Source: Squalus acanthias
Lineage: Eukaryota
Direction of reading: 5' to 3'
DNA length: 64,000 nt
Assembly (NCBI GenBank): GCA_030390025.1
Contig: CM059432.1
Location: 98,148,001 to 98,212,000, forward strand
Shown here: one piece after another, positions 29,122 to 64,000 of the stretch
Layout of the letters: each line of letters begins with the position of its first letter
How positions within the stretch are numbered: the first letter of the stretch is position 1
The notes under the pieces: model-generated
Told to the model about the DNA's origin: nothing
Databases searched by the model: none
What the model saw: only the letters and a program-made list of their open reading frames with translations
Program-made: the position numbers and the translations under genes

Positions 29122-32028
29122 TCAAGCTATCACACTCCCTATCACTCTGGTGTGCTCCATGTGCTTATCCAATAACCGCTTGAAAGTTCCTAAAGTGTCC
29201 GACTCCACTATCACAGCAGGCAGTCCATTCCACACCCCAACCACTCTCTGAGTAAAGAATCTACCTCGGACATCCCTTCTATATCTCCCCCCATGCACCT
29301 TATAGTTATGCCCCCTTGTAACAGCTGCCTCTACCCGAGGAAATAGTCTCTGAACATCCACTCTATCTATCCCCCTCATCATCTTATAAACCTCTATTAA
29401 GTCGCCTCTCATCCTCCTCCTCTCTAAAGAGAAAAGCCCCAACTCACTCAATCTTTCCTCATAAGACCTGCCCCCCAAACCAGGCAGCATCCTGGTAAAT
29501 CTCCTTTGCACTCTTTCCAATGCTTCCACGTCCTTCCTATAGTGAGGTGACCAGAACTGCACACAATATTCCAAATGTGGTCTCACCAAGGTCCTGTACA
29601 GTTGCAGCATAACCTCACGGTTCTTAAACTCAAACCCTCTGTTAATAAACGCCAACACACCATAGGCCTTCTTTACTGCTCTATCCACTTGAGTGGCAAC
29701 CTTCAGAGATCTGTGGATATGAACCCCCAGATCCCTCTGCTCCTCCACGTTCCTCAGAACCCTGCCGTTGACCCTGTAATCCTTATTCAAATTTGCCCTA
29801 CCAAAATGAATCACCTCGCACTTATCAGGGTTAAATTCCATCTGCCATTTTTCGGCCCAGCTCTGCATCCTATCAATGTCTCTTTGCAGCCTACAACAGC
29901 CCTCCACCTCATCCACTGCTCCACCAATCTTGGTGTCATCAGCAAATTTACTGATCCACCCTTCAGTCCCCTCCTCCAAGTCATTGATAAAAATCACAAA
30001 CAGCAGAGGACCCAGCACCGACCCCTGTGGCACACCGCTGGTAACTGGTCTCCAGTCCGAAAATGTTCCATCCACCACCACCCTCTGCCTTCTATGAGAT
30101 AGCCAGTTACTTATCCAATCGGCCAAATTTCCCTCTATCCCACAACTCCTTACTTTCTTCATGAGCCGACCATGGGGAACCTTATCAAACGCCTTACTAA
30201 AATCCATGTATACGACATCAACTGCTCTACCTTCATCTACACACTTAGTTACCTCCTCAAAGAATTCAATCAAATTTGTTAGGCAAGACTTACCCTTCAC
30301 GAATCCGTGTTGACTATCCCTGATTAAGTTGCCCCTTTCCAAATGGTCATAAATCCTATCCCTCAGGACCTTTTCCATTATCTTACCAACCACCGAAGTA
30401 AGACTAACCGGCCTATAATTACCAGGGTCATTCCTATTTCCTTTCTTGAAGAGAGGAACAACATTCGCCACTCTCCAGTCCTCTGGCACCATTCCCGTGG
30501 ACAGTGAGGACCCAAAGATCAAAGCCAGAGGCTCTGCAATCTCCTCCCTTGCCTCCCAAAGAATCCTAGGATATATCCCATCTGGCCCAGGGGACTTATC
30601 GACCCTCAGGTTCTTCAAAATTGCTAAAACATCTTCCCTCAGAACATCTACCACCTCCAGCCTATCCACCTTTATCACACTCTCATCCTCAAGAACATGG
30701 CCCCTCTCCTCGGTGAACACTGACGAAAAGTATTCATTCATCACCTCTCCTATCTCTTCTGACTCCATGCACAAGTTCCCACTACTGTCCTTGACCGGCC
30801 CTACCCTCACCCTGGTCATTCTTTTATTTCTCACATAAGAGTAAAAAGCCTTGGGGTTTTTCTTGATCCGACCCGCCAAGGACTTCTCATGCCCCCTCCT
30901 AGCTCTCCTAAGCTCTTTTTTTAGCTCATTCCTTGCTACCTTGTACCCCTCAATCGACCCAACTGAACCTTGTTTTCTCATCCTTACATACGCTTCCTTT
31001 TTCCTCTTGACTAGACATTCAACCTCTTTTGTGAACCATGGTTCTCTCACTCGGCCATCTCCTCCCTGCCTGACAGGGACATACCTATCAAGGACACGCA
31101 GTAATTGCTCCATGAAAAAGCTCCACTTTTCGTTTGTGCCTTTCCCTGATAGTTTCTGTTCCCATCTTATACTCCCTAATTCTTGCCTAATCGCATCATA
31201 ATTACCCCTCCCCCAATTATAAACCCTGCCCTGCCGTATGGCCCTATCCCTCTCCATTGCAATAGTGAAAGTTACCGAATTGTGGTCACTATCTCCAAAG
31301 TGCTCTCCCACATACAAATCAAACACTTGGCCCGGTTCATTACCCAGTACCAAATCCAACGTGGCCCCACCTCTTGTCGGCCTATCCACATATTGTGTCA
31401 GGAAACCCTCCTGCACACACTGTGCAAAAACTATCCCATCCGAACTGTTTGACCTATAAAGGTTCCAATCAATATTTGGAAAGTTGAAGTCACCCATGAC
31501 AACTACTCTGTGACCTCCACACCTATTCATAATCTGCTTTGCAATTTCTTCCTCCACATCTTTATTACTATTTGGGGGCCTGTAGAAAACTCCTAACAAC
31601 GTGACCGCTCCTTTCCTATTTCTAACTTCAGCCCATATTACCTCAGACGGCAGATCCCCCTCGAACTGCCTTTCTGCCGCTGTTAAACTATCCTTGATTA
31701 ACAATGCTACTCCTCCACCTTTCTTATCAACTTCCCTACTCTTACTGAAACATCTATACCCCGGAACTTCCAACAACCATTCCTGTCCCTGTTCTAACCA
31801 TGTCTCCGTAATGGCCACCACATCGTAGTCCCAAGTACCAATCCACGCTCCAAGTTCTCCTACCTTATTCCGGATGCTCCTTGCATTGAAGTAGACACAC
31901 TTCAAGCCATCTTCCTGTCTGCCGGTACATTCCTGCGACCTTGATACCCTCCTCAGTACCTCCCTACACTCACCACTGGCTCGTGGACTACAGCCCTTTT
32001 TCCCATCCCCCTGACAAATTAGTTTAAA
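29122..32028 (-). CDS. CR1 ORF2p (APE endonuclease and reverse transcriptase), uninterrupted, start mechanism unclear
   Basis: YFNARS, ITETW, GDFN, SDH, then KSPGPDG, GVPQGSVLGP, FADD. The track start at 32139 is TTG; the first ATG lies well inside the endonuclease. The 5' boundary given here is the slippery site. Confidence 0.93.
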   Translation of the reverse strand, partial: FKLICQGDGKKGCSPRASGECREVLRRVSRSQECTGRQEDGLKCVYFNARSIRNKVGELGAWIGTWDYDVVAITETWLEQGQEWLLEVPGYRCFSKSREVDKKGGGVALLIKDSLTAAERQFEGDLPSEVIWAEVRNRKGAVTLLGVFYRPPNSNKDVEEEIAKQIMNRCGGHRVVVMGDFNFPNIDWNLYRSNSSDGIVFAQCVQEGFLTQYVDRPTRGGATLDLVLGNEPGQVFDLYVGEHFGDSDHNSVTFTIAMERDRAIRQGRVYNWGRGNYDAIRQELGSIRWEQKLSGKGTNEKWSFFMEQLLRVLDRYVPVRQGGDGRVREPWFTKEVECLVKRKKEAYVRMRKQGSVGSIEGYKVARNELKKELRRARRGHEKSLAGRIKKNPKAFYSYVRNKRMTRVRVGPVKDSSGNLCMESEEIGEVMNEYFSSVFTEERGHVLEDESVIKVDRLEVVDVLREDVLAILKNLRVDKSPGPDGIYPRILWEAREEIAEPLALIFGSSLSTGMVPEDWRVANVVPLFKKGNRNDPGNYRPVSLTSVVGKIMEKVLRDRIYDHLERGNLIRDSQHGFVKGKSCLTNLIEFFEEVTKCVDEGRAVDVVYMDFSKAFDKVPHGRLMKKVRSCGIEGNLADWISNWLSHRRQRVVVDGTFSDWRPVTSGVPQGSVLGPLLFVIFINDLEEGTEGWISKFADDTKIGGAVDEVEGCCRLQRDIDRMQSWAEKWQMEFNPDKCEVIHFGRANLNKDYRVNGRVLRNVEEQRDLGVHIHRSLKVATQVDRAVKKAYGVLAFINRGFEFKNREVMLQLYRTLVRPHLEYCVQFWSPHYRKDVEALERVQRRFTRMLPGLGGRSYEERLSELGLFSLERRRMRGDLIEVYKMMRGIDRVDVQRLFPRVEAAVTRGHNYKVHGGRYRRDVRGRFFTQRVVGVWNGLPAVIVESDTLGTFKRLLDKHMEHTRVIGSVIA

Positions 32029-32945
32029 CCCCCCCGAAGAGCCGTAGCAAATTTCCCTCCCAGGATATTGGTGCCCCTCTGGTTCAGGTGCAAACCATCC
32101 TGTTTGTACAGGTCCCACCTTCCCCAGAATGTGCTCCAATTATCCACATAACTGAAACCCTCCCCCCTACACCATCCCTGCAGCCACGTGTTTATCTGCA
32201 CTCTCTCCCTGTTCCTCAACTCGCTAGCACGTGGCACCGGCAACAAACCAGAAATTACAACATGGTTTGTACTGGCTCTCAGCTTCCAACCTAGCTCCCT
32301 AAATTCCTGTTTTAAATCCCCGTCCCTTCTCCTACCTATGTCGTTGGTACCGATGTGTACCACGACTTGTGATTGTTCCCCTTCCCCTTTGAGGATTCTG
32401 AAAACACGGTCCGAGACGTCACGGACCCTGGCACCCGGGAGGCAACATACCATCCGTGAGTCTCTTTTGCTGCCACAGAACCTCCTATCTGTCCCTCTGA
32501 CTATTGAGTCCCCAATAACTATTGCTCTCCTGCTCTCCCCCCTTCCCTTCTGAGCCACAGGGACGGACCCAGCGCCGGAGATCCGGTCACCGTGGCTTAC
32601 CACTGGTAAGTCGTCCCCCTCAACAGTATTCAAAGCGGTATACCTGTTACTGAGGGGAACGACCACAGAGGATCCCTGCACTGACTGCTTCCTCCTAGCC
32701 CCTCTCACCGTCACCCATCTATCTTCATGCTTTGGAGTAATTACATCCCTGAAGCTTCTATCTATGACCTCCTCTGCCTCCCGAATGATCCGAAGTTCAT
32801 CCAGCTCCAGCTCCAGTTCCCTAACACGGTTTTCGAGGAGCTGGAGATGGGTGCACTTCCCACAGGTGTAATCAGCAGGGACACCTACGGCGTCCCTCAC
32901 CTCAAACATTCTGCAGGAGGAACATTTCACTGCCTCTCCTGCCAT
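32019..32945 (-). CDS. CR1 ORF1p (zinc finger, coiled coil, SGNH esterase-like), 308 aa
   Basis: CSSC...CGKC, LENRVRELELELDELR, then GDSIVR, HIGTND and DGLHL motifs. Confidence 0.95.
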   Translation of the reverse strand: MAGEAVKCSSCRMFEVRDAVGVPADYTCGKCTHLQLLENRVRELELELDELRIIREAEEVIDRSFRDVITPKHEDRWVTVRGARRKQSVQGSSVVVPLSNRYTALNTVEGDDLPVVSHGDRISGAGSVPVAQKGRGESRRAIVIGDSIVRGTDRRFCGSKRDSRMVCCLPGARVRDVSDRVFRILKGEGEQSQVVVHIGTNDIGRRRDGDLKQEFRELGWKLRASTNHVVISGLLPVPRASELRNRERVQINTWLQGWCRGEGFSYVDNWSTFWGRWDLYKQDGLHLNQRGTNILGGKFATALRGGLN

Positions 32946-33987
32946 CCCCTCCAGCTAACTTGCAGATTAAACTAGAACAAAAAAGAGCTTACCTGATAGT
33001 CACTCACCTCCTTTAGGTTAGAGGAGGAGGAAGGGTGGGGGACACTACAAGTGTAGTGTCTCGGGTTTAGGAACCGCCCAACTTAAATACAGGTAAAAAT
33101 TAATCACCTACCCAGCAACCACTGCGTCCCGCACTTTAAAAGCCTCTGTAGGCCTACCTGGTCGCCGCCGCCTCTTGACTCCTCCGCCTCGCCGCATAAG
33201 GGGGAATTGGAACTCCCTCCACCAAGTGAAAACCAGGCGGAATGGGAGTTAAGTTACTGATCGAAGCCTGACCCGCAGCCATTTTAATGTTGTTTGCAGA
33301 TGGCTGAGGCATCCACCTGACTGAATTGGGAGCCTCATAAATTTATGCAAATAGTGGTTCCATCACTTAGATTGGACCCAGATAAAATTTTAATGGCCGA
33401 CTGAGCTGGCAGTAAAGTAAATTTGGCAGGCAAAAAGTGGATTCCCTCCAAGCAATATTCCCTTTAATTTTTTTTTGGGTGCGCGGCCCATTCAAAATAA
33501 CATGCATGCGTGGTTTTTCCTATTTAAAAGCCATCTCACCGGCTGCGCAGGAGCTGCAGAGCACTGCCGAGCTGCGTGGCTTAAAGGGAACGCTGCCTGT
33601 AAGGTAAGGTTCTCTTTGTGTGGCCAGGAAGATTAGGAGTGCTCCTCTGGGCCCCACAAAGACATTTTGGGCCACGGTCACCCGGGCTCTCGCACCCGCT
33701 CCACCCATGAAACCCTCCTGAACTCCCGCGACTTACCTGACTGCCGGCCTGGTGGTCTGGGCCACCTGCTCTTTGAAGGCCAAAACTCGGTGAGCTGCGT
33801 CAAGTTGCCCATTTTGAGTGGGCAGCAGGCTAGCGGGATGTAAATGAGGCCCGGCTGTTAAAATGGACCGGGCCTGCCACTACTGATCCAGGCCAGTGGA
33901 CCACGCATCCCAATGGCTTCCCACTCGGAGGTTAACATTCCCTCTATAGAGCCTTAGCCAGTGAGGAAGAAGAAAATGACAGAGATT

Positions 33988-42547: not shown

Positions 42548-45500
42548 GGCCTAGAAATTCAGGGGTTTAGCTTTGGCTGTTAATGCCTGTTTTGATGAAA
42601 AATGGCAGCTGACTCCTTCTGGCAGGTCCCGTGGTGGCTGCCATTTTGGGCAGGTCGGCAGCACTGCCGTTGCCTGCGCTGGCTGCAGAAACGGAAATGA
42701 GGCAGATTGTGATGTCAATGAGTGTGCAACGCTCATTCGACGCCTCATCTGTCATTTTCGACGTCGCCGCTCCAGTTACCGCTCTCTCTTAATCACGACC
42801 AGCTGACCAAGCGTTCAGTAGCAGGTAGGAGCCCCCAGCAGCGCTATTTAAAGGGATCATCATCAACAACTTTCAGCTGACATGGTTTCTCAGTTTGACT
42901 GGCGCTGCCTAAGTTTCTGCAACTCTTGCAGCTTTCTAAACTTGTTTACGTTTGCTGAGGTGACGGAGTGTTGGTGCAAGTGGAGAATGCCTTCATTTTC
43001 ATTTAAAGGCTTCCGCTCACACTACTTGCTCACAGTCATGGAGGCTCTACTTGCAGTCCCCCTCGCGCTCGAGTATCTTCAGGATAGGGAGCAGAGCGGA
43101 GCAGCGAAGAAGAGGAGAAAATGCTCGCAGAGGAAGGAGGAGCAGGAGGACTCCCAACAGGAAGCCTTAACCACCTAGAGTCTTCTGAGAGCACTTTGCT
43201 TACCGCCACTTAAGCGAGGAGCAGTGTATTAGGAGGCTCCGCTTCACCAAGGTGATGGTCACAGAACTCTGCTACCTCCTGCAACCAGACCTGCAGCCTC
43301 AGAGCACGGCGAACACGGCTCTCCCAGTGGCCCTCAAGGTCACCGTGGCCCTCAATTTCTTCGCCAGTGGATCCTTCCAGACTGCAGCAGGAGACATAGC
43401 TAACATCTCCCAGTTCACCATCCATCGCTGCATGCAGGAGGCCACAGAGGCTCTGTATTCCAGGAGAAAGGACTACATTGTCTTCTCTCTGAACAGAGAG
43501 AAGCAAGACGAGCGCACATGTGGCTTTGCCAGAATAGCAGGCTTCCCCATGGTGCAGGGCGCCATCGACTGCAGACACGTGGCTTTGCAGGCACCGTATA
43601 CCAATCCTGAGATGCTCCGTAACTGCAAAGGCTAACACTTAATGTGCAGTTGTTGTGCGACCACGCCAAGCGATTCCTCAATGTCAATGCTCACTATCTT
43701 GGTAGCAGTCATGATGCCTTCATCCTGCGCCAGTCCGGTGTACCAGCAATCTTCCAGCCAAATGCCAAATCCGAGGGTGGATGCTTGGAGGCAAGCGCTA
43801 TCCGCTCTGCACCTGGCTGATGCCTCCCCTCCACAACCCCACCACTCCTGCCCAGCACTCATATAATGACAGCCACGCTGCCACCAGGAACTTCAGTGAT
43901 CGGACCATCTGCCTTGACTGCACGGGAGGAGCCCTTTAGCACTCCCGGAGCTGGTGTCCCATTTTGTGGTGGTCTACTGCACGCTCCTCTACTTGTCCAT
44001 CATGCAAGTGCAGCCCTTGCCACCAGGGATTGCAGGACCATCCCAGGAGGAGGAGGAGGAAGAGGAGGGAGGGAGGAGGCAGGCAGCAAATCCCCATTCT
44101 GTACAGCTGTCTGTGAACTTCTCCTCAGACACCGATTCCATTGAATGAAACCACAGATCCCCGTTGCTCACCACTTCCCCATCATACCATCCCTCTGTCA
44201 CGGAACATCACACCGTCCTCCTGGGCACAAAGCTGAAATGAGAGCCACCACAAGACACACATTCCAAACAAAAATCATAAATTTATCCAAATCCAATCAA
44301 AATTACAATATCAACTCATCACCCATGTGCATTCCCTTAGTGCCTGTCGTTCGTGTGCCTTTACCTACTCTCATGCTGCTATGCAGTGCTCACCCAGCAT
44401 GGCTATTGGAAGGTTGCTGACTTTCAGTGGGGGAGACAACAGATGGCCTCAACCAGCTGTGGACCTAGAATGCCTGGCTGTAGACTGCATCACCTCGGCA
44501 TGGGCGGCAGCAGTCTGGACTGGCTGGCTGATAGGCAGTAGCAAGGGCAATGGGGGAGTGGCAGTGGTGGAGGTAGGAATGCTGTCATCATGAGAGAGGA
44601 CAGCAGGTTCTTGATTCACAGACCCACTGCCACTCCCCCAGGGCAGTGTCTCAGCATCCTTAGCAATCTGTTGAAGGACAGATTGCTGGGCTGCTGCAAC
44701 ACCTTGCAAGCCTCTTTCAACACTTGTAAACCCAGCCACAATGGCAGCAGTCTGAGATTGCGTGGCAGCAAGCTGACCCTGCAGGAGAGCAGTCTGCGCT
44801 TCCATTGGGTTGCTTCCGCCTGTGCTGCAATGGAAGCCGTGACATCGCCATCACACACAGCATCATGGTTGGGTCCACAAGGTCTCTCCTGAAGTTGTCC
44901 ATCATTTCCATCCTGGAAATCATGGGCTCCAAGCTCTGCAAAAAGCCCCGTCCAATGTTGGAGCCGGACTCCTCCATGCTCCTTGACACTGACAAGAGGC
45001 TCTCTGGCAGGCTTGCCATTGCACCAAGTATTTCTGTGTGCTTGCCCATCACCCTTCTTCTGAAGGCTGCCCCATTGAGGTCATCATCTGAGCCCTGTGC
45101 GGCGATCTCGCCCTCTGGGGAGCTGGAACCCGAGCTACCCCTTCCCCCTGGCCTGGCTGCAGCCCACTCATGCCCGGTGCCTCACCATGTGCAGATCCTT
45201 CCTCTACCCTCTAAATTCCGCGCAGTGCCAGTTTCTGAGCTGGTGTCTGCGAGTATCAGATGCAGTGCTGATATGTCTTCTTCTTCTCCTCCATCAGTCT
45301 CCTCCTCAAGTTCAGGGACAGGCTGGCCTGCTGGCAGTTCTTGGGTATCTGAAAGCAGAAAGGCACAAGGGTCAGCTTATGGTGAGGGGAGTGGGAGGGG
45401 AATGCTATATATCTACGCATTACAATCAGCAGCTTTTAAGTGAGAAGAGATTGTGGGATGAGCGGGAAGTGGGATGTGAGAAGAAGAATTAGGTATGACC

Positions 45501-51790: not shown

Positions 51791-51893
51791 GACGCTAGAC
51801 CCTAGCTGGACTGTATTGTAAGATACCCCCAGATTGATCCAGGCACCAGGAGCGCAACTTCCATATGCTCAATTGTGAATCTGTTGGCCACAT

Positions 51894-53373
51894 TGTAATG
51901 GAATAGCCATATTTCAGAAAAATACACCATCCTATAAACAGATTTTTGATAATATTAAAACATGACAAACTGGGGTTAAAAATCTGAAAGCCTCGGCGAC
52001 ACAGGCTGTAAAACAGAAATACAAGCTTATGAGATAAGATGGTTTGTTAATACAAAGCTGTGAACACAAGCTTTGAAATGGGAATTGGTTTGTAAATACA
52101 GAGCCAAAGCCCCTATTGAAGCAAACGATTGGCGCTTCCAGAATGTCTAGAGTTTGGGAGAAACACAATGGAATGACCCAAGTAAAGTGTTATAATCTAA
52201 CACATCGAACAGGTGCACAGAACATTAACAAAATTAGGTGCCTTTGAAAAAATGACATCAAGTAAAAGAAATACCTGTCGTAAAATAGTTTTATGTTAAA
52301 CTTAGAAACAGGAAACACGATTAAATATGCAACTAATTGAGATAGCAAGAAAACAAGTAAACACCCTAAGAGAAGTGTTTTCAATTTACAAGTTGTAAAA
52401 TATACCGACAGAAAGGCTTTGAAAATATAACATCAATAGATGACATCAAGCAATTACATTGTTTTTGTATTGAAAATGGAATAGTTAGGAGACACGACGT
52501 CTGGCTTACAAGTAGTTAAGTGATATTAGAAATTCAATAGAAAGACATCCTAAGAATCATATCAAATAAATACTACTGTCATATTGTTTTTTATGATGGT
52601 TTTTGAAACACCTAAACCGGAGACAAGTCAAAAAGCTAACAGCTGATATGACAATAAAGAATAGAAGGTCAGCAAAGAATGACTTGAAACAATTATCTTA
52701 CAACAGGAAAACTTCAAAGGATAAACCACCAAAAAAAGATATAAAAATAAGAGCTTTTCAAATGGAAAGTCAGAAGACGCTGGGAAGGCAAGCGTTTCTC
52801 AACTTCACAGACACGCTCTGTAAGTTTACAATTCTGAGTCTCGGGTAATCAAGGCATTTGATTTTGGTGGATATTCTGGATTAAGAAATAAGTAGAAGTG
52901 TGGAAAAGTAACGAAGTTAAGATTTGAGAAGAAGGATCTCTGATAAGAAATGTAAACTCTTTGTATTTTGAATGGTTAAAATTACGATTGCCATAACAGA
53001 TGTTAACTAAATGTCGGTTCTTTAATAAGTCTATATATTTTTAGAATTATCTCACAGAGTATTTCTGTATAAACTCGCAAACTCAATTTCTGTACACTCT
53101 TCAGTGAGGAGTTGCAGAATTCTGGGGGGTATTCCGGACCCTCATAATATCCGGAAGGTTACAGTCTAGTTAAACTTATTAAAAGTACTATCCGGAGGAC
53201 GGTAACATTTTCAGACCGTTTCTTTCCTTTAGGGAGAGGTAGTCTGACCTTTAGACCCAATTAAGCGTCTTATGGGATCCGGCTATCTCTAACTTTAGTT
53301 GAAGGTGAACGTCTGGGGAATACACCTGATCTGGGGTAGTCCGAAAGGGCTAGGACTTGTAATTTTCCCTTCA
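51894..53373 (+). repeat. 5' LTR, 1480 bp
   Basis: TGTAATGG...CCCTTCA. TATAAAA at 52740-52746. AATAAG at 53024-53029 aligns with AATAAA in the relative near 10.7 kb. Confidence 0.97.
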
Positions 53374-53375
53374 GT

Positions 53376-53393
53376 TGCCGCCCAATGTGTGTG
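53376..53393 (+). promoter_or_regulatory. Primer-binding site, degenerate tRNA-Lys1,2 type
   Basis: TGCCGCCCAATGTGTGTG two bases after the LTR, 13/18 match to TGGCGCCCAACGTGGGGC, the primer type used by foamy viruses. Confidence 0.8.
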
Positions 53394-53669
53394 TTAACGA
53401 GTTGGTACAGAACCTATACTTATATTTATATCTATATATATCCTGTAGATTGTTAAGTATAGAAGGAGTGTTTTACTGACAGTGGTTCTAAGACCCAGAT
53501 TTAAGTCTCGAGAGACGACAAGTCCCTGATCAGGCCTTGTAGAACTTAAATCAGAACTCCCTCAATATGCCATTGAGGTCTAGAAGCTTCTTATAAAGTT
53601 CAAATTAAACCCTAACCAAGGTTAGGTCCTGACGCAATTAAATCCTAACCGAGGTTAGGTCCTGAAGAA

Positions 53670-55250
53670 ATGGCAAACCCTGTCGGAATTGGCCAAGTCT
53701 TTTTGTTAGAAAATTTAAACGATTGCTTTATTAGTGGAAATAATCCTATCCCTGAACCTCCACAAGACCAAGTGATAATTTTTGAAATAGAAGGCTTTGA
53801 TGCCGAAGGAGCCGTTAGAACTCATGTCACGATTAATGTTGATCCCCAGAACCAGGGGATACAGAATATCCTGTGGGATAATCAAACAAATACTCCAGAT
53901 CCAAAAATTCCTTAATGATAAGGTGCACACCTGCACAATTGGGAGGCCTAATGAACGGTGCCCAACAAGGTGGTGGCAACCTTGGACGAATAGCAGGACC
54001 CGGAGCAGCCTATGTTCCTGGTGGCCATGGATTCCGGTTAAGGTGGCAAACTCATGAAGAAATAAATGACCAAAATCTTCGAGAAAACTATAGACAGCTT
54101 AGAATTCATTATAATCAATGCTGACAGGCACTGGCTCACTCTTATCTAAATGCTGGAGGCGCAATGATTACTGGTCCAGTAAACCAACCCCAGCAACCAC
54201 AAATTGCACCCCTAGGTCAAGTAAACCTGAGTTCTATCTATACGATGTGTGGTAAACCAGGAAACACCAGCCAGGAAAAAACCTGCTGGATTCTAAATAA
54301 CCTTGATAAATTGGAAACCTGTTGCCAAGATTGGAATGCTCAACACCTGAGGCAACTACTGCAAATGATACTAAGTTCAGACTTAATTCCCCCATTAAAC
54401 CAGTGTAACAACTGGGTTCAAATATACGCTTATGTTCTCACGGCAACTCAGGAGGGCATGTAATGGGTTCCATCAAGGAAATACTCACTAATACAGCCAC
54501 AACTAAAGGGCTGGTAGCTGCCTACAGAATAGGCAAAGTACTTACACAGGATAATTGGGATATTGTCCACGGTTGCCTGGCCAATCAATACCAAAATACA
54601 GCCCTCAAACTTGCTTGTGAGGGTGCTCTAAATGATTATCGAGATAACCAACAAAAATGGGATAATGTCAATCGCATTATCCAATTAAATCATGACCTCT
54701 TAGTTCTACCCCAAACTAAACCTATGATGAGATCAGAAACTAGGGATAAAAAAAACAGAGAAGGTACCTTTGGTACTCAGAAAGAAGGACTGTATAGACC
54801 CAAGTCTCAAGTCCACCCCGCCCAGACACAAACTCGTGGCTCGGGACCCCCAAGAGGGTATTCCAGAAGGTTTACAACCCCAACTCGCCCACAATACGAG
54901 AAAGATTTTTCCACAGAAAGATGGGATAGACGAGGGGCTAGACCTCGAAAGGAAAGCGAAGGACAGTGGACTCCCTATGGGGACAGCTTTTACACTGGCC
55001 AAAGTTATCAAAGAGCCATGGGAGGATATCGGGAAAACCAATATGGGGATCAAAAAGATTCCCGGCAGAACCAACGTCCACCCCAACAGGAGGATCGTCA
55101 AGATCATAAACGGTCCGACAAAACCCCTCAGGGATCTGGAAAACATGAAACCACCAAGAGGGAGGAACAAAAATCAGTTAAAATAATTAAAGACAAAGAA
55201 GCGAATAAAACTCAGAATTCTGAGGATGAACAATCCCAGGATTGGAGGCC
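53670..55250 (+). pseudogene. gag: Foamy-type gag, broken by frameshifts and stops
   Basis: Consecutive ORFs at 53670, 53915, 54164 and 54463. N-terminus LENLNDCFISGNNPIPEPPQDQVIIFEIEGF resembles the spumavirus Gag N-domain. G/R/Q-rich C-terminus with no CCHC knuckle. The 3' end is approximate. Confidence 0.75.
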
Positions 55251-57370
55251 TGGCACCCAGCCAGGGCCTCTTGAATTCCCCTATGCCTCGGCAACCTTGT
55301 CCACAACCACACAAGTGAAAGCCCAATTTGTAAAAAAAACCATTAGGGGGATTGACACAAGACAAAACCAAGATAATTAATTTATACAAAATACCTATTA
55401 CTATATATGGAATTACAGTGACCCTAGATGTAGGACTGGTATCACAATTGGCCTGTTCCCTCATTATAGGACAAATAGACATGCAACATTACCTTAAAAT
55501 TTCAACCAAACCTGTACAAGCATCCACATGGATGACAGGGAAAAACATGTTCGAACACAGCTTGATCGAACTTGCCTAGAAGGGGGAGGCAAAAGACCTC
55601 CTCGAGCAACTCATTAAAAAATATTACCCTTATCTATAACGCCATCCAAATCAATGTGGAAAGATAGAGCATCCCCATCATGGAGGATGATGATACAGAG
55701 GAGGGAATCAGACAAATACCTATGAGACCGCTTATAGAATACCATCAAGTTATTTACTGTGATGGATCGTCAACGACGATTAAAAAAGAGACATCCCATA
55801 AATCTTCAGCTGGGATGGGGATAGTAGTAGGGACCTTTCGAGTTTCCTATTCTTTTTATACAGAAGAATTTCTGTCTAAACCCCTTGACCATAAGACAGA
55901 GCAATATGCTGAAGCCACAGCATTACGGTGTGCTTTAGAGAAAGCAGACTTTATTAAACCCACACTGTGGGAAGAAATTCTCCATTCGAGGATGGAGAAA
56001 CAGAATTGTCAGGTGATTAATGTAAACGGGCGTACCACTGGAATAAGTACACTCAAAAGGAAACAGCCTTGCTGACGAACAAGCGAAACGTTCGGTCTGC
56101 ATGACACCCCCTCGAGAGGGGCCTGCCAATGTTAATGTAATCACTAAGGCAGAACGGGCAGCTAATCAGGATGATGAGCTGATTCAGCTATTAGACCCGA
56201 TAACAGAGCATTCCACCAGAATATCCACCAAAGTACTTTTACTCGGAAACCCCTACGGGTATTGTACTAGTTAAGTTGCCCAAGGGAAACCGAGAAGTAC
56301 CCGCGAGCCACAAATGAGAACAGCTTGTAAAAGAAGCTCACAAGGGCATGAGTTAAGTACATTGTGGTGCCAGAACAACATTCTGTAAATTGACCCTCTT
56401 ATATTGGTGGCCAGGCATGCTTAGAGCCTGTAAAACATACGTGGCAAATTGTGAGCCATGATATTTGACTAGTAAGTCATCACTAAATTAAGCCACCACC
56501 ATTGGCTCTTGTGAAAGCTGATGAGCAAATGGGAAAATTCTTTATTGACTTTATTGGACCACTACCCCCATCTTTGGGATATAGACATGTTCTTGTTTGT
56601 GTGGATGGATGCACTTCCTTTTGCTGGCTGGTCCCCACAAAAACTGTTTCGGAAAACGCACTCGCCAGGGCTATTTCTGATATAATTACTGTAGCTGCTG
56701 CACCCAAAATCTTACACTCCGTTAAAGGCGGGGCCTTTGTATCCAAGGTCTTCATAGCCTACTGTGAACAAAGGGGGATTGGGTTAGAGCACAGCACACC
56801 ACGTCATCCGCAATCAGCGGGGCTGGTGGAATGTAAAAATCGGGAAGTAATAAAGTTATTGGTCAAACTGTTGGGAATCAGGGAGAATAAGTGGACCGCC
56901 ATCATTACGGAAGTACAGCTATCACTCAATAATGTGCCCACATCTGCATCAGGGACAGTGTCCCCTAACACTCCATATTATCTGATGTATGGGGTTGAAA
57001 TGCATACACTGCTTACCCATAGTTCTTTTATTGCCTCTACACACTCTGAGTCCTTGACCCGACAGCGACAGTTAGATTTTTTTTTTAAAGTAACAGAGGA
57101 GATTCATCGAATTGATCAGATCAGAGGATAAGGGAAGCAAATAGGCAGAAAAAATTGACAAATAAAGCATGACAACCCATAGTAGGAGAATGGGTACAGG
57201 AAAAGAAGTTCGAGCAGAAACCTGGTTTAAGACCGAAGTGGAAAAAACCTGTTCAAATACATTCTGTTATTAATGAAAGAACAGTTCAAGTACATGTTAA
57301 CCAGCTGAATGGCAAGCATATTTTTAAAACTGTCTCCATAGACAATATCAAAAGATGTCCTGCAGGATAC
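55250..57370 (+). pseudogene. pol: pol remnant: protease traces, RT polymerase domain deleted (~55680), RNase H, integrase
   Basis: RNase H VIYCDGS...SSAGMGIV. Integrase AH...HCG...YWWPGM...CEP, core FFIDFIGPLPPSLGY...HSTPRHPQSAGLVE, C-terminal LRPKWKKP...KTVSIDNIK. The second catalytic Asp reads Val (LHSVKG). Confidence 0.92.
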
Positions 57371-57990
57371 CGAAAAGGAGGAACAATACAAGGTGCAGTC
57401 ATACACTGTCTTTTAAGACCCAGCTTGGAGCACGACACAGGAAATGGATGCGATCGAATTACTGACGATGGGAAGTCAGAAGGTGTCATCGGCTCTTCTA
57501 CACGTTGCTTGGCAACGCATCAGGATTTGGATTTGTGAAAAGCAACAACCGAAACAAGGAAAGATCAACGAGTTACTTTAACGAAGGAGGAAGACATTGC
57601 GGATAAAGAAGGAATCAACTGAATGCCTCGCAAGGCCTTTATGAATACAAGCATCGGTACACACACCGGATCGAAGGACCAGCATGTCAAGCTTCAACTA
57701 GTTTCAAATTACGTCTCCTTGACTCGTGTGAATACCTCACCTATACGGAACATACATCTGCCGATTGGACATTCTAAGTACATGTTGTTTCGCTAATAGC
57801 ATGACTATGTACTATCATCCTTTTAAATTGTGTTCAATTTACAATAAGGCAAAACATAGTCTTAGGATGATTTAAAAGGAATTTTCATGTAGCACATGAT
57901 TGTGCATCTCGTGAACTTAATATGCTATTATAACCTTATGAGTATCATTGACCAAACTCTGCCATGAATTTTTAAGCTCATCTTTTGGTC

Positions 57991-57999
57991 AAGAGGGGG
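57991..57999 (+). promoter_or_regulatory. Polypurine tract
   Basis: AAGAGGGGG directly abuts the TG of the 3' LTR. Confidence 0.9.
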
Positions 58000-59396
58000 T
58001 GTAATGGAATAGCCATATTTCAGAAAAATACACCATCCTATAAACAGATTTTTGATAATATTAAAACATGACAAACTGGGGTTAAAAATCTGAAAGCCTC
58101 AGCGACACAGGCCGTAAAACAGAAATACAAGCTTATGAGATAAGATGGTTTGTTAATACAAAGCTGTGAACACAAGCTTTGAAATGGGAATTGGTTTGTA
58201 AATACAGAGCCAAAGCCCCTATTGAAGCAAACCATTGGCGCTTCCAGAATGTCTAGAGTTTAGGAGAAAAACAATGGAATGACCCAAGTAAAGTGTTATA
58301 ATCTAACACGTCGAACAGGTGCACAGAACATTAAAAAAACCAAGTGCCTTTGAAAAAATGACATCAAGTAAAAGAAATACCTGTCGTAAAATAGTTTTAT
58401 GTTAAACTTAGAAACAGGAAACACGATTAAATATGCAACTAATTGAGATAGCAAGAAAACAAGTAAACACCCTAAGAGAAGTGTTTTCAATTTACAAGTT
58501 GTAAAATATACCGACAGAAAGGCTTTGAAAATATAACATCAATAGATGACATCAAGCAATTACATTGTTCTTGTATTGAAAATGGAATAGTTAGGAGACA
58601 CGACGTCTGGCTTACAAGTAGTTAAGTGATATTAGAAATTCAATAGAAAGACATCCTAAGAATCACATCAAATAAATACTACTGTCATATTGTTTTTTAT
58701 GATGGTTTTTGAAACACCTAAACCAGAGACAAGTCAAAAAGCTAACAGCTGATATGACAATAAAGAATAGAAGGTCAGCAAAGAATGACTTGAAACAATT
58801 ATCTTACAACAGGAAAACTTCAAAGGATAAACCACCAAAAAAAGATATAAAAATAAGAGCTTTTCAAATGGAAAGTCAGAAGACGCTGGGAAGGCAAGCG
58901 TTTCTCAACTTCACAGACACGCTCTGTAAGTTTACAATTCTGAGTCTCGGGTAATCAAGGCATTTGATTTTGGTGGATATTCTGGATTAAGAAATAAGTA
59001 GAAGTGTGGAAAAGTAATGAAGTTAAGATTTGAGAATAAGGGGTAGAAATTAGGTCGCGCCCCATTTGGGGCGCAAATATCGTCCGAGCGCAAATATTAG
59101 CGCCTGGCGCTAATTATCGGCACTGACAGGAAACTTCACTTTTACTGCCCCGGGAGGTGAGTGGAGCGCTAAATTAGGCGCTGCACACCTCTCTTAAGGC
59201 GCAAAGGCCTAGGAGTGAGGCGCTACCTCAGCGCACGAGCGCAGCGCAGCTGCTGCCAGTTAGCGAGGGAACACAGACACACTGGCGCCGGACACTTCTT
59301 AAAGCGGGGGGGGCCACTTGCTCCCCAGCCACACCCTGCTCATTGCAGCCTTGAATCTCAGCCTGGAGAGACCTGTAATCCATTTTGCTGCCAAGC

Positions 59397-61381
59397 ATGG
59401 AGAGGGTGAGAGAACGCGCTCATCGCTTCACCGAGCGGGCCTTGGATGCTCTGGTTGGCGCAGTGGAGCGCAGACGATGCATGCTGTTCCCGGAGAGTGG
59501 CAGGAGGCCTTTGTCACGCGAGTTCAGAAGAGTGTGGAGGGAGGTGGCTCAGAGCGTCTCCTCCAGGAGCATGGTGCCCAGGACCCATGTTCAGTGCCGC
59601 AAAAAATTCAACGACCTCACTCGGGTCGTCAGGGTGAGTGGTTTTTTCTCAATACCTCTCCATCCCTCCATCTCAACCTCACTATATGGCCAGAGGGTCT
59701 TAAAACCCCAATGCACAACACTCATGCAACACCTATGGCCCTTTCATCAAACACACACACACATTCCACACTTTGCATACAGTAAGGGCTATTCACCTAT
59801 GGGAGGCACATCAGGCAAGACCATGGCTGCATATTGTAAGGGCTATTCACCTATGGGAGGCACATCAGGCAAGACCATGGCTGCATATTGTAAGGGCTAT
59901 TCACCTATGGGAGGCACATCAGGCAAGACCATGGCTGCATATTGTAAGGGCTATTCACCTATGGGAGGCACATCAGGCAAGACCATGGCTGCATATTGTA
60001 AGGGCTATTCACCTATGGGAGGCACATCAGGCAAGACCATGGCTGCATATTTACTCAGATGCTGTCCTTTTTCTTGCAGGCTAAGCTGGCTCATAATCGG
60101 AGACAACAGCAACGGACGGGTGGAGGGCGGCTTCAGCTGCAACCCCTCAGCGATCTGGAGGAGCGCGTCCACAGGATTGTGGCAAGCCGGGTGATCGGTC
60201 CCGTCGCCACTGGGGACGCCGACCCCATTGTGGACAGCAATGGTAAGGTCATCACCTTTTTGTCCTCTGTCCTTCCACTTGTCCCTCACAATACCAGCCT
60301 TTGACACTTTCAATCCAACTTGCTAACTCGCTGCACTTATTCCTCCCTTACTGCCACCCTGTCCTCACGCTAAAGCCACTCTTGTACCTCCCTGCTTTCA
60401 GATGGTGATTCACCAGCTGAGGAGACGGGCCCTGAAGCTGCCACTGGGAGTGATGCTGCAGCTGAGGAGGAAGAGGAAGCCGGAGCATCAGTGCCACCCT
60501 CTCCCGAGGAAGCCCATGGCCACACTGGGAACACGCCTTCCCCGGAGGGGAGCAGGGGGGAAGGGGCTGATGATGGTGAAGCTCCAGGACCCAGCGGGCT
60601 GCAGCAACGCCATGGGGGGGGGAGGGAAGAACGGGAGCCTTCTCCCCAGAGGGAGAGTATGCCAGACACTCCTACTGCAATGGACGCAGAGGAGGAGCGG
60701 CTGATTGCAGAAATGAACAGCCAGGCGGTGGGCATGCACACTGAGCTCATGGGTGCAGTGGGAAGGGTGCCCGAATGCATTGAGGCACTGGCAAGGAGTG
60801 TGGAGCACTTCGCTGTAGCACAGGCGGATGCCACACTAAAGCTTAGTGCTGCAATTCAGTCACTGGCTGCCAGGAACCCATCTGAGACTGCTCTCATGCA
60901 GACTCAGATTGAGGCCACGCGAGCACTGACTGCTGCCATCCTCGATGGTTCGTGCACATGTCCCCGGGGCTGTCACCGCGCCGCAGCAGGCCAGCAATCT
61001 GTTCTCCGGCAAATTGCTCCGGATGCTGAAGTGCTGCCCCGTGGGAGTGCCAGTGTGTCGGGCGAGCAGGGATTTGCTGTCCTCTCTCACGATGACAGCA
61101 TTCCTGCTGCCAACACTGTCACTTCTCCACTGCACTTGCCACCGCCTGTAGGACAGACTGCTGCCGCCCATGCAGAGTTGGTGCAGTCTGCAGCCGGGCC
61201 CTCCAGGCCCAGAAGTGGTCGAGGCCGTCCTTCAGGGGCAGCTGCAGTGTCAGGGTCTGACGAGCAGCAGCCTTCCACCAGCCTTGCTGCAGCCACTGAG
61301 GTCCCATTACGGAGGAGCAGTAGGGTTAGAAGGGGGGAAGTGCGCAAGGGAAGGAGATCACCCTCGAAGGGCAAAAAGTAG
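59397..61381 (+). CDS. Harbinger Myb/SANT-like DNA-binding protein, exons 59397-59633, 60080-60242, 60402-61381, 459 aa
   Basis: RFTERALDALV...WREVA...RTHVQCRKKFNDL. GT-AG introns in phases 0 and 1 join 237+163+980 nt into one stop-free frame ending at TAG. Confidence 0.9.
59782..60051 (+). repeat. Minisatellite, 5 x 54 bp, in Myb intron 1
   Basis: Unit GTAAGGGCTATTCACCTATGGGAGGCACATCAGGCAAGACCATGGCTGCATATT, with no visible differences between copies. Confidence 0.97.
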
Positions 61382-61675
61382 GAGGTGTGCCAAAATGCTG
61401 GTCATTTTTTTATTAAAGGCCGAGGTTCATGGCCCAACTTTTGTTTAGTGTTTTGGACATTATCTCCAGGTTGTGAGAACCAGTTATGTTATTGACTGTT
61501 TTTTTGTGTTTATTTCTATGAGTTTGTCATGAGGAATTGACACACACAGAGTTTGTACAATAAATAAGTTTCTGTATTCAAAATATACATGGCTGGTGGT
61601 TGGAATTATTGGTGCCTTGGCCGGCTTAGGGGTTGCGTGCTGGGTTGATTCGTGTTTGTAGCAATGGCAGGGGCC

Positions 61676-62836
61676 CTAGAAGCGGCTTGCTATTAGTCGT
61701 TGACGGACGGCCCTTGCAGTTTGACCATTGTGGGCCGCCCTCCTGCCTTGGTGCTGCTGATGATCATCGTCCTCGTCCTGTTCCTCCTCTTCCTCCTCCT
61801 CCTCTGGTGGTGCTGCAAGGCCTGGTGGCATTGGCTGGGTCCTGAGGATTGCCATGTTGTGCAACATGCAGCACACGACTACGAAGTTCGAAACTTGCTC
61901 AGGCGAGTACTGCAGGGCTCCTCCGGAATGGTCCAGACAGCGGAACCGTTGTTTCAGCACGCCGATTGTGCGCTCAATAATGTTCCTGGTTGCTTGATGG
62001 CTTTCCTGGTACCGCAGCTCAGCAGGGGTGTTTGGCGCACGGAGCGGTGTCATCAGCCAGGTGCTCAATGCGTACCCCTTGTCCCCCAGAAGCCAACCAA
62101 CTGGCTGATGCGGTGCCTCGAAAATTTCTGCCACAGTAGTCTGGCGCAGGATGAAAGCATCGTGGCAGCTGCCCGGATAGTGGGCATTGACAGCGAGAAT
62201 CACCTGTCTGTGGTCACAGACCAACTGCACATTCAAGGAATGGAACCCCTTTCTGTTCCTGAATTCCTCTGCATTCTCTCGCGGAGCACGCAAAGCCACA
62301 TGCGTGCAGTCAATGGCGACCTGCACCATGGGGAAGCCCGCTACCCTCGCAAAGCCCATAGCACAGTCATGCTGCTTGTCTGGGGTCATAGGGAAAGAGA
62401 TGAAGTCTCGTCTCCTTCTGAAGAGGGCATTGGTGACCTGCCGGATGCAGCGATGCACCGCAAACTGGGAGATATTGGCGAGGTCCCCAACAGCAGCTTG
62501 GAATGAGCCAGTGGCGTAGAAGTTCAAAGCCACTGTGACCTTCACTGCCACCGACAGAGACGTCCTGGACCTCAGCTGAGGCTGCAGATCTGGCTGCAGC
62601 AGGTGGCAGAGCTCAGTGACCACCTCCTTGCTGAATCGCAGCCTTCGCAAACACAGCTCCTCGGACATATGGATGTAGGAGAGCTGTTCACGATATACCC
62701 TGGGAGGGTAAGCTCTCCTGTACATGCGCCTGATGGCCCTCCTCCGTCTGGCCATCATTGCCACTCTCTGTCTGCGTCTCACTATCCTCCGATTGAGCTG
62801 GAGCAGGACGACGCCCCCAATCATTGCAGCCCCCAT
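61676..62836 (-). CDS. Harbinger DDE transposase (HARBI1-like family), 386 aa
   Basis: [48 protein letters not shown]. Open from ATG to stop. Confidence 0.96.
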   Translation of the reverse strand: MGAAMIGGVVLLQLNRRIVRRRQRVAMMARRRRAIRRMYRRAYPPRVYREQLSYIHMSEELCLRRLRFSKEVVTELCHLLQPDLQPQLRSRTSLSVAVKVTVALNFYATGSFQAAVGDLANISQFAVHRCIRQVTNALFRRRRDFISFPMTPDKQHDCAMGFARVAGFPMVQVAIDCTHVALRAPRENAEEFRNRKGFHSLNVQLVCDHRQVILAVNAHYPGSCHDAFILRQTTVAEIFEAPHQPVGWLLGDKGYALSTWLMTPLRAPNTPAELRYQESHQATRNIIERTIGVLKQRFRCLDHSGGALQYSPEQVSNFVVVCCMLHNMAILRTQPMPPGLAAPPEEEEEEEEQDEDDDHQQHQGRRAAHNGQTARAVRQRLIASRF

Positions 62837-64000
62837 ATTCTCTTTGCCAGAAAAGTAATGAGGTACAGCAACTAAAGTAGCAGCAAAGTTAGGATGAACT
62901 AGGCCAAACTACCTCACAAAGCGTTGAGTCAATGTAGAAGTCTCTCTCTCTCTCTCTCCGAATCTCTCTCTCTCTCTCAGAACGAGTGGTGCATAAATGT
63001 CGACCACAGAAAAAGACAGGAAGAGGCCCCCTTTAAATAGCGCCCCCCCCAGCCCCACACCGATTGATAACGTTCCAGTCTTCCGGTCGTTGGAAGCGCC
63101 AGGCGGTAAGGCAGGGGGCGCCACTCAATTTCCGCTCCGGGGCGCCCCAAGGGCGTTGCACCATGGAATGACGTCACAATCTGCGCGCGCAGGTGGTCGC
63201 AGCGGTAAGTTTTAGCGCCGCCGCACAATCTCAAGTTAAGTTCTCGAGCGGCGCAAACAGCGCTGTGCCCGGGCGTTAGCGGCTTAACGCCCCATTAGCG
63301 CCCTCTTAAGGCGCTAACGGGAGGCGCAACCAACTGAATTTTTCCCCCTTAGGATCTCTGATACGAAATGTAAGCTATTTGTATTTTGAACGGTTAAAGT
63401 TGTGATTGCCATAACAGATGTTAACTAAATGTCGGTTCTTTAATAAGTCTATATATTTTTAGAATTGTCTCACAGAGTATTTCTGTGTAAACTCGCAAAC
63501 TCAATTTCTGTACACTCTTCAGTGAGGAGTTGCAGAATTCTGGGGGGTATTCCGGACCCTCATAATATCCGGAAGGTTACAATCTAGTTAAACTTATTAA
63601 AAGTACTATCCGGAGGACAGTAACATTTTCAGACCGTTTTTTTCCTCTAGGGAGAGGTAGTCTGTCCTTTAGACCCAATTAAGCGTCTTATGGGATCCGG
63701 CTATCTCTAACTTTAGTTGAAGGTGAACGTCTGGAGAATATGCCTGATCTGGGGTCGTCCGAAAGGGCTAGGACTTGTAATTATCCCTTCAACATGAACC
63801 TCAATATACCAGTTTTCAGTTCACTTCCTGTGGTCCTAGTTGCAAACTGGCTGTACATTGAGAGAATGGAATCCTTTCCTGTTGATATCAGTGATGGCAT
63901 TGATCAAGGGAACACATATGGTGACATTGGCCTTTCTATAACTTCTTGGACTTTCAGGAATTCTGCAATTCTATAAAATTACAGCGCCCCTTCATGCTAC

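What the first reader, a model, noticed from the sequence alone, without database searches (positions are those of the whole stretch)
51894..63791. Two-LTR endogenous foamy-like retrovirus in a probable cartilaginous-fish genome
Seen: 1480-bp LTRs, ACAT TSD, Lys1,2-type PBS, PPT, Gag without a zinc knuckle, and an integrase whose N-terminal extension, HHCC region, core (FFIDFIGPLPPS) and C-terminus (TVSIDN) track prototype foamy virus as I remember it. Known: this combination is characteristic of Spumaretrovirinae, and foamy-like ERVs occur in fish and amphibians. Inference: this may be an undescribed lineage with fully defined ends.
Basis: partly seen in the sequence, partly recalled or inferred. 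Interest (0 to 1): 0.85.

Follow-up and report, generated by a model that had tools for sequence, protein, structure and literature searches.

The report
Gutted shark foamy-virus hitchhiker element
This is a dead foamy-type retrovirus in a shark or ray genome that lacks its copying enzyme and any intact envelope gene, shares the enzyme deletion with copies in other species, and so was likely spread as a passenger by longer helper copies.

Summary
The provirus is real: 1480-bp LTRs (2.3% apart), an ACAT target duplication, a degenerate Lys-type PBS and a 9-nt PPT. Its Gag, RNase H and integrase are closest to foamy viruses. Integrase scores 143-159 bits against 17 foamy genomes and at most 86 against non-foamy elements. 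The host is an elasmobranch.

The RT-less junction is bridged by diverged contigs from two organisms, one of which seems to lack this insertion, and longer forms branch off at the same point. It is therefore most likely a helper-dependent subfamily, not a one-off ruin. The kept pol part corresponds to the foamy Pol-encapsidation signal, a correlation only.

Foamy ERVs of sharks and rays are published (CFEFV, 2023; paper not held, identity untested). This scan has already reported foamy-like deleted copies elsewhere in this genome. Verdict: a new variant of a known kind, moderate interest.

The parts
51890..51893 (+). left 4-bp target-site duplication (ACAT)
   Evidence: contigs of runs X8 and X6 follow the flank and stop matching at 51893 and 51892 (records 25, 17)
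51894..53373 (+). 5' LTR, 1480 bp, TG...CA; TATA-like 53032, donor-like 53104 and ATTAAA 53178 in foamy-like spacing (alternative TATA 52740 with donor-like 52820)
53376..53393 (+). degenerate tRNA-Lys1,2-type primer binding site, 2 nt after the LTR
   Evidence: 13 of 18 to the foamy 18-mer; spacing as in 6 of 6 foamy genomes
53603..53668 (+). two 33-bp tandem units just before the likely gag ATG; predicted stem-loop, candidate dimerisation or packaging signal (inferred)
   Evidence: fold z = -2.6, 3 of 200 shuffles as good
53670..55380 (+). gag, broken by stops and frame changes; capsid-like central part matches foamy Gag, the N-terminal part matches nothing; no Cys-His box
   Evidence: Gag_FV_central E 1.6e-8; foamy Gag profile 54463-54828 39 bits and 54161-54439 7.9 bits, 0 of 300 shuffles
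55376..55678 (+). C-terminal half of protease plus the linker before RT (foamy Pol profile positions 56-152); no D[ST]G motif in any forward frame of 55150-55450
   Evidence: 8.6 bits, 0 of 300 shuffles
55668..55672 (+). junction at which about 430 codons (RT and connection domain) are missing
   Evidence: profile jumps from position 152 to 581; bridged by X8 record 25 and X11 record 9; loose ends at 55668 and 55672 in X1 and X13
55710..56094 (+). RNase H remnant with a second internal loss (profile 660 to 729; junction near 55966) that removes the region of the third catalytic acid
   Evidence: best PDB hits are 5 of 5 foamy PR-RT or RNase H chains; junction bridged by X1 records 6 and 7 and X13 record 21
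56204..57385 (+). integrase (N-terminal extension, zinc-binding region, core, SH3), broken by stops and frame changes; the second catalytic Asp is absent in this copy
57386..57990 (+). about 600 bp where env and accessory genes would lie; only a faint match of 57706-57840 to the foamy Env leader peptide
   Evidence: 2.7 bits, 9 of 300 shuffles as good; no Pfam Env hit
57991..57999 (+). 9-nt polypurine tract; GGGTG across the PPT/LTR junction
   Evidence: motif described for foamy and fish foamy-like ERVs in PMC5210030 (passage)
58000..59039 (+). 3' LTR, first part
   Evidence: 98.6% identical to the 5' LTR
59040..63348 (.). Harbinger/PIF DNA transposon inserted in the 3' LTR: Myb/SANT gene on +, open DDE transposase frame 61679-62908 on -, short terminal inverted repeats, TAA/TTA flanks
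   Evidence: Myb_DNA-bind_5 E 3.9e-8 and DDE_Tnp_4 E 3.8e-38; ends
63349..63791 (+). 3' LTR, second part
   Evidence: 95.7% identical to the 5' LTR
63792..63795 (+). right 4-bp target-site duplication (ACAT)

Best explanation
This is a dead, integrase-inserted copy of a foamy-type endogenous retrovirus that has no reverse transcriptase and no recognisable envelope gene, and it likely belongs to a helper-dependent subfamily whose RNA was copied in germ cells by proteins from longer relatives. Shown: provirus anatomy; foamy affinity of Gag, RNase H and integrase; absence of RT; the same RT-less and RNase H-shortened junctions in contigs from other organisms; longer forms branching off at both junctions. 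Inferred: the deletions arose in a master copy before this insertion. Its LTR-driven RNA kept the PBS, the 5' leader, the 3' part of pol (where foamy viruses hold the Pol-encapsidation signal) and the PPT. It was packaged, reverse-transcribed and integrated in trans, which left a 4-bp duplication. Afterwards the copy decayed and a Harbinger landed in the 3' LTR. Age roughly 15-100 million years, depending on LTR part and assumed rate.
For: The feline foamy virus Pol matches the window only at residues 588-653 and 729-1130. A 17-genome Pol profile jumps from position 152 to 581 within 32 bases. An RT-only profile finds nothing, and no YxDD or LPQG occurs on the coding strand. The junction is bridged with at least 31 letters on each side by contigs of 2 of 4 runs (X8, X11; organisms C and D), each with 14 differences from this copy; summed depth in the junction bin is 21712 (X8) and 11754 (X11), against 38-51 on the unique flank in X8. 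X8 and X6 contigs follow the flank and leave it at the duplication, so the X8 organism seems to hold the junction at other loci. Loose ends at 55668 and 55672 (X1, X13) and at 55966 (all four runs) show longer forms. Complementation in trans is an established route for ERVs without working gag, pol or env (PMC8922424, passages). PFV's CasII Pol-encapsidation sequence (nt 4881-5884; PMC6669543, passages) maps by my arithmetic to about Pol residue 845 onward, which is kept.
Against: No whole genome was available, so no copy census was possible. The tool warns that contig depth is no copy number. No contig spans the element. Of the listed records, X1 record 1, X11 record 10 and X3 record 14 cross the junction with under 31 letters on one side and were not counted, and X13 lists none. 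What the longer forms carry was not identified. Gag is kept at about full length although it is dispensable in foamy vectors (PMC3738957, passage), so the 'kept only cis signals' pattern is imperfect. No exact copy of the 3' PPT was found in the kept pol part, although foamy viruses have an identical central PPT there.
Confidence: 0.62

Rival explanations
1. The deleted RNA was spread as a defective passenger inside infectious particles made by an intact or exogenous shark foamy virus, by reinfection of germ cells, not by copying inside one cell.
For: Foamy capsid export needs the cognate Env (PMC3738957, passage), so a helper with env is the textbook route. The kept segments resemble a foamy vector genome.
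Against: Contigs of run X17 cross the env-less 3' region (records 6 and 8) and depth is continuous there in all four runs. The N-terminal, Env-binding part of foamy Gag is not detectable. An env-bearing helper was not seen.
Confidence: 0.18
2. The deletions happened after insertion, in one or a few old copies that were then multiplied by segmental duplication or gene conversion; the element never moved as an RT-less RNA.
For: The two LTR parts differ unevenly (15 of 1041 against 19 of 439; Fisher p 0.002), which hints at conversion or recombination. The long bridging contigs have depths of only 80 and 29.
Against: This copy has its own perfect 4-bp duplication and near-identical LTRs. The junction occurs in an organism whose flank appears to lack this insertion. 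Both internal junctions recur in other organisms.
Confidence: 0.1
3. The parent is not of the foamy lineage proper but a mosaic, or a sister lineage, that acquired a foamy-like RNase H and integrase; without RT the usual marker is missing.
For: RNase H and integrase were acquired several times in retroviruses (PMC8922424, passage). Tree support for the foamy group is moderate (84/79, 87/88). One quick tree paired the element with an unnamed single-frame Gag-Pol protein, P0004 (SH-aLRT 81). ERV-L, snakehead and loki elements were not sampled.
Against: Gag, the protease-linker remnant, RNase H, integrase, PBS spacing, PPT length and LTR layout all point the same way.
Confidence: 0.1

Closest known systems
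Cartilaginous fish endogenous foamy virus (CFEFV; Wang, Chen and Cui 2023, J Virol 97:e0181622, PMC9972966)
   Same: Foamy-type ERV in sharks or rays, rooting outside the other vertebrate foamy viruses (title seen in reference lists; content recalled, paper not held). Our integrase also falls outside the mammalian clade.
   Different: Sequence identity is untested. Whether RT-less, high-copy forms are described there is unknown to me.
Exogenous Spumaretrovirinae (prototype, simian, feline, bovine, equine foamy viruses; loci L001-L017)
   Same: Integrase core 44-51% identical; Gag central domain; RNase H; no Cys-His box; Lys-type PBS 2 nt after a long LTR; 9-nt PPT; 4-bp duplication; TATA, donor and poly(A) spacing.
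   Different: No RT, no recognisable env, tas or bet; no detectable Gag N-terminal domain or protease active site; apparently very abundant, whereas endogenous foamy records are called extremely rare (PMC8922424, passage).
CmiFLERV of elephant shark and frog or salamander FLERVs (PMC5512871, passages)
   Same: Foamy-like pol in a cartilaginous fish. Two frog (Pelodytes) proteins group with our integrase.
   Different: Only pol was detected in elephant shark, whereas here LTRs, gag and both ends are present. No sequences were compared.
ERV-Spuma.0-Sca of small-spotted catshark (PMC10699275; text parts 1-2 of 4, supplement 2 part 1 and a row search)
   Same: Foamy-clade ERV at high copy number (293 elements) in a shark.
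   Different: 866-bp LTR, 9220 bp with pol and env, no conserved Gag domain reported, clusters with ray-finned-fish FLERVs; ours has a 1480-bp LTR and a foamy Gag domain.
Non-autonomous ERVs mobilised in trans (mouse ETn and IAP deleted subtypes; names recalled, mechanism in PMC8922424 passages)
   Same: Works like these: defective internal genes, intact ends, helper proteins.
   Different: Those derive from orthoretroviruses. My two searches listed no foamy-derived example by title or abstract.

Membership tests
Spumaretrovirinae / foamy-like ERV | RT groups with foamy viruses | not testable with these tools
   RT is absent from this copy and no longer copy could be fetched
Spumaretrovirinae / foamy-like ERV | Integrase groups with foamy viruses, not with Gypsy or orthoretroviruses | tested here: met
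   143-159 bits to 17 of 17 foamy genomes against at most 86; clade support 84/79 and 87/88; ERV-L, snakehead and loki not sampled
Spumaretrovirinae / foamy-like ERV | Foamy-type Gag central domain and no Cys-His box | tested here: met
   Gag_FV_central 34.8 bits, cut-off 30; PFV Gag structures the only PDB hits, weak; no CCHC
Spumaretrovirinae / foamy-like ERV | Foamy Gag N-terminal domain | tested here: inconclusive
   no match to the sub-profile, Pfam or the Atlas; region broken and divergent
Spumaretrovirinae / foamy-like ERV | tRNA-Lys1,2 PBS, GGGTG PPT junction, 4-bp duplication, long LTR | tested here: met
   the PBS is degenerate (13 of 18)
Spumaretrovirinae / foamy-like ERV | Spumavirus A9 protease at the start of Pol | tested here: inconclusive
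   C-terminal half and linker match a foamy Pol profile (0 of 300 shuffles); no Pfam hit; N-terminal half and active site not found
Spumaretrovirinae / foamy-like ERV | Pol made apart from Gag from a spliced mRNA (pol in +1 frame in 17 of 17 genomes) | tested here: inconclusive
   the protease remnant lies in the +1 frame to the Gag tail, but the Gag frame stays open about 40 codons past the last Gag-like match, and this copy has frame changes elsewhere
Spumaretrovirinae / foamy-like ERV | Foamy env, internal promoter, tas/bet | tested here: not met
   about 600 bp between pol and the PPT; at most a faint leader-peptide trace, 9 of 300 shuffles. So this copy is filed as a deleted derivative, not a complete foamy virus
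CFEFV (published shark/ray foamy ERV) | Sequence identity or clustering with CFEFV Pol | not testable with these tools
   paper not held
Non-autonomous ERV subfamily | The same internal deletion in independent insertions | tested here: met
   junction bridged in 2 of 4 runs, second junction in 2 of 4; independence inferred from the apparently empty flank in X8
Non-autonomous ERV subfamily | An autonomous helper with matching ends | tested here: inconclusive
   longer forms branch off at both junctions; their content was not identified
Ty3/Gypsy LTR retrotransposon | Integrase within Gypsy; Gypsy-type RNase H | tested here: not met

The most novel reading that the evidence does not exclude
A shark foamy virus became a genomic parasite and spawned a natural 'gutless foamy vector'. 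This RT-less, env-less satellite kept the leader and the 3'-pol Pol-capture signal and was copied to hundreds of loci across several shark species over tens of millions of years. That would show that the foamy way of packaging Pol in trans through signals in 3' pol dates back to the base of jawed vertebrates, and that foamy viruses can amplify inside a germ line.
Probability: 0.3. Interest if true: 0.72.

Novelty: new variant of a known kind. Interest (0 to 1): 0.5.

Why it matters
Endogenous foamy viruses are usually rare, and modern foamy viruses need Env to leave the cell and RNA signals in pol to load their polymerase. An abundant RT-less subfamily in sharks is a natural deletion series: what hundreds of copies kept or lost can show which RNA signals an early foamy virus needed. 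RT-based screens, as used in PMC5512871, would miss such copies entirely. The host range itself (sharks and rays) is already in print, which limits the surprise.

Tried and rejected
No genome is held for this window. Word-based protein searches with the integrase core found nothing, and neither did scans of viral contigs or metagenome contigs with it; these are low-sensitivity blanks. The Rfam and tRNA scans were empty. The Atlas gave no usable hit for the Gag N-terminal piece. PDB search of one frame of the protease region gave only two chance hits.

An env remnant was considered: a by-eye likeness to the leader peptide scored only 2.7 bits (9 of 300 shuffles; 44 of 300 with the full Env profile), so it is kept as a hint. 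A central PPT identical to the 3' PPT was not found in the kept pol part. Purine runs in integrase follow conserved codons and were not counted as independent evidence.

Expression: no RNA holder was listed. X17 is only guessed to be RNA, so nothing is claimed. The RT-alignment scan returned only foamy genomes and one other element, so ERV-L, snakehead and walleye viruses stayed unsampled. Earlier-finding look-ups by sequence and by relatives were empty. The CFEFV paper could not be read, and its supplements may bear directly on novelty. A single LTR date was rejected because the two parts disagree.
Full report
OBSERVATION. The ends are as described. The 5' LTR runs 51894-53373 (TG...CA). The 3' LTR starts at 58000 and ends at 63791, and ACAT flanks both ends. 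Leaving out a 4.3-kb insertion, the LTRs align over 1480 sites with 25 transitions, 9 transversions and no gaps (K2P 0.023). The insertion (59040-63348) is a Harbinger transposon, with Myb/SANT and DDE_Tnp_4 hits, short inverted ends and TAA/TTA flanks. The PBS matches the 18-mer shared by foamy genomes at 13 of 18 letters. Seven places in the window reach that score, but this one lies 2 nt after the LTR, as in 6 of 6 foamy genomes printed. A 9-nt purine run and the GGGTG junction precede the 3' LTR (motif in PMC5210030, passages). One of three TATA-like sites (53032) gives TATA-to-donor, TATA-to-poly(A) and TATA-to-PBS distances of 72, 146 and 344. Among the 16 of 17 foamy genomes printed, the donor lies at 60-82 in 13, the poly(A) signal at 130-222 in 15, and the PBS at 285-408 in all. 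I chose the fitting site, so this is weak support.

HOST. A CR1 ORF1 elsewhere in the window has as best named hits Mustelus (74%), Stegostoma (68%) and rays (50-62%); one 74% record labelled Pseudomonas is probably contamination. The first named bony vertebrate is at 40% (125 hits). The host is an elasmobranch.

AFFINITY. The integrase core matches PFV integrase at E 1e-42 to 1e-45 and HIV at 5e-6 or worse. In 1.8 billion representatives the best hit is feline foamy virus Pol. Domain scores are 143-159 bits for 17 of 17 foamy genomes, 118 for an unnamed Gag-Pol (P0004), 103 for a frog protein and at most 86 for the rest of 167 candidates. Three trees were built: 63 rows, quick; 32 hand-picked rows; and 34 rows with added orthoretroviruses, 5 near-duplicates left out. 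All put the element with foamy viruses, the frog proteins and P0004 (support 90; 84/79; 87/88), outside the mammalian clade (97/96; 98/97). Gamma-type, lenti-, beta- and one epsilon-like integrase (labels inferred from their sequences, recalled) score 8-42 bits and form a separate group. ERV-L, snakehead and loki elements were not sampled. RNase H hits only foamy structures (5 of 5). Gag hits Gag_FV_central above cut-off, a foamy Gag sub-profile also matches 54161-54439 (0 of 300 shuffles), and no Cys-His box is present. The Gag N-terminal part matches nothing.

WHAT IS MISSING. The internal region is 4626 bp. Feline foamy Pol aligns only at residues 588-653 and 729-1130. A profile of 17 foamy Pol proteins matches 55370-55678 at positions 54-152 and resumes at 55710 at position 581; the first match beat 300 of 300 shuffles. 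An RT-only profile found nothing, and YxDD and LPQG are absent from the coding strand. RT and the connection domain are therefore gone. RNase H lacks positions 660-729, and no protease active-site motif was found. After integrase only about 600 bp remain, with at best a faint Env leader trace (9 of 300 shuffles). All genes carry stops or frame changes.

ONE RUIN OR A FAMILY. Twenty of 24 listed runs, under 8 organism codes and 8 studies, hold words of the internal region (best share 0.38). Laid contigs cover every bin of the element in 3 of 4 runs, at summed depths of thousands to hundreds of thousands, against 0-51 on the unique flank. The tool warns that this is no copy number. On a 601-base stretch the RT-less junction (55668-55672) is bridged by X8 record 25 and X11 record 9, each with 14 differences from this copy; X1 record 1 and X11 record 10 fall short of 31 letters on one side, and X13 lists no bridge. 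The RNase H junction (55966) is bridged by X1 records 6 and 7 and X13 record 21. Loose ends at 55668 and 55672 (X1, X13) and at 55966 (all four runs) show forms with extra sequence at these points; that they carry RT is an inference from position. Flank contigs of X8 and X6 stop matching at 51893 and 51892 with 289 and about 170 letters left over, which suggests an empty site. If so, the X8 organism holds the RT-less form at other loci, and the deletion predates this insertion.

MECHANISM. An RT-less RNA cannot copy itself, yet this copy has near-identical LTRs and a clean 4-bp duplication, the marks of reverse transcription and integrase action. Complementation in trans (PMC8922424, passages) is the simplest account. 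Foamy vectors need CasI (leader and 5' gag) and CasII in 3' pol, with a Pol-encapsidation sequence at PFV nt 4881-5884 (PMC6669543, passages). Using L004 coordinates (start site estimated from the TATA box, PFV identity recalled), that stretch runs from about Pol residue 845 into the first 50-odd codons of env. The homologous part is kept here, while the 5' part of CasII is partly lost. Against it: gag is also kept though dispensable in vectors (PMC3738957, passages), and no identical central PPT was found in pol. How the parent expressed Pol is unresolved. Age: 23-53 million years overall at the two published shark rates (PMC10699275; PMC4422223, part 1 of 2 read), but 15-33 and 45-102 for the two LTR parts, which differ significantly.

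COMPARISON AND NOVELTY. Foamy-like ERVs are published for elephant shark (pol only; PMC5512871, passages) and catshark (866-bp LTR; PMC10699275). A 2023 paper names a cartilaginous fish endogenous foamy virus (seen only in reference lists; not held; content recalled). Identity with it is untested and plausible. Searches for non-autonomous foamy ERVs and for shark foamy ERVs listed no RT-less foamy subfamily by title or abstract; the library lacks most subscription papers. This scan has noted env-deleted or gutted foamy-like copies elsewhere in this genome. These are unchecked AI notes, and whether they are the same family was not tested. The element works like a non-autonomous ERV and belongs, on Gag, RNase H and integrase, with foamy-like ERVs; it is not a complete foamy virus. 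Verdict: new variant of a known kind, interest 0.5.

Noticed in passing
window 59040-63348: Full-length Harbinger/PIF transposon with an open 410-codon transposase frame and an intron-split Myb/SANT gene; it holds a 54-bp tandem repeat (59720-60105). It is younger than the provirus.
   Followed up: partly
window 51894-53373 against 58000-63791: LTR divergence is three times higher after the Harbinger site (19 of 439) than before it (15 of 1041), and CpG decay does not explain it. Possible gene conversion.
   Followed up: partly
window 10694-11526 (-): Older LTR fragment 62-72% identical to this LTR: a related, more diverged family.
   Followed up: no
window 29125-32954 (-): Near-intact CR1 LINE (311-codon ORF1 frame, 1005-codon ORF2 frame), used here to place the host; already noted as e1-8155988.
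   Followed up: partly
protein P0004 (1687 aa, unnamed contig of 10956 bp): Single-frame Gag-protease-RT-RNase H-integrase whose integrase sits in the foamy group but whose Gag has no foamy Gag hit: a foamy-related element with fused Gag-Pol.
   Followed up: partly
protein P0101 (Scyliorhinus torazame): Predicted catshark protein whose first 100 residues are 42% identical to the integrase C-terminal core.
   Followed up: no
window 53603-53668: The number of 33-bp leader units seems to vary among copies (joints 53609 to 53644 in X8 and 53660 to 53604 in X6).
   Followed up: no
window 45347-45387 and 60363-60403: 41-nt inverted match between the Harbinger Myb gene and an upstream region, probably another old Harbinger copy.
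   Followed up: no
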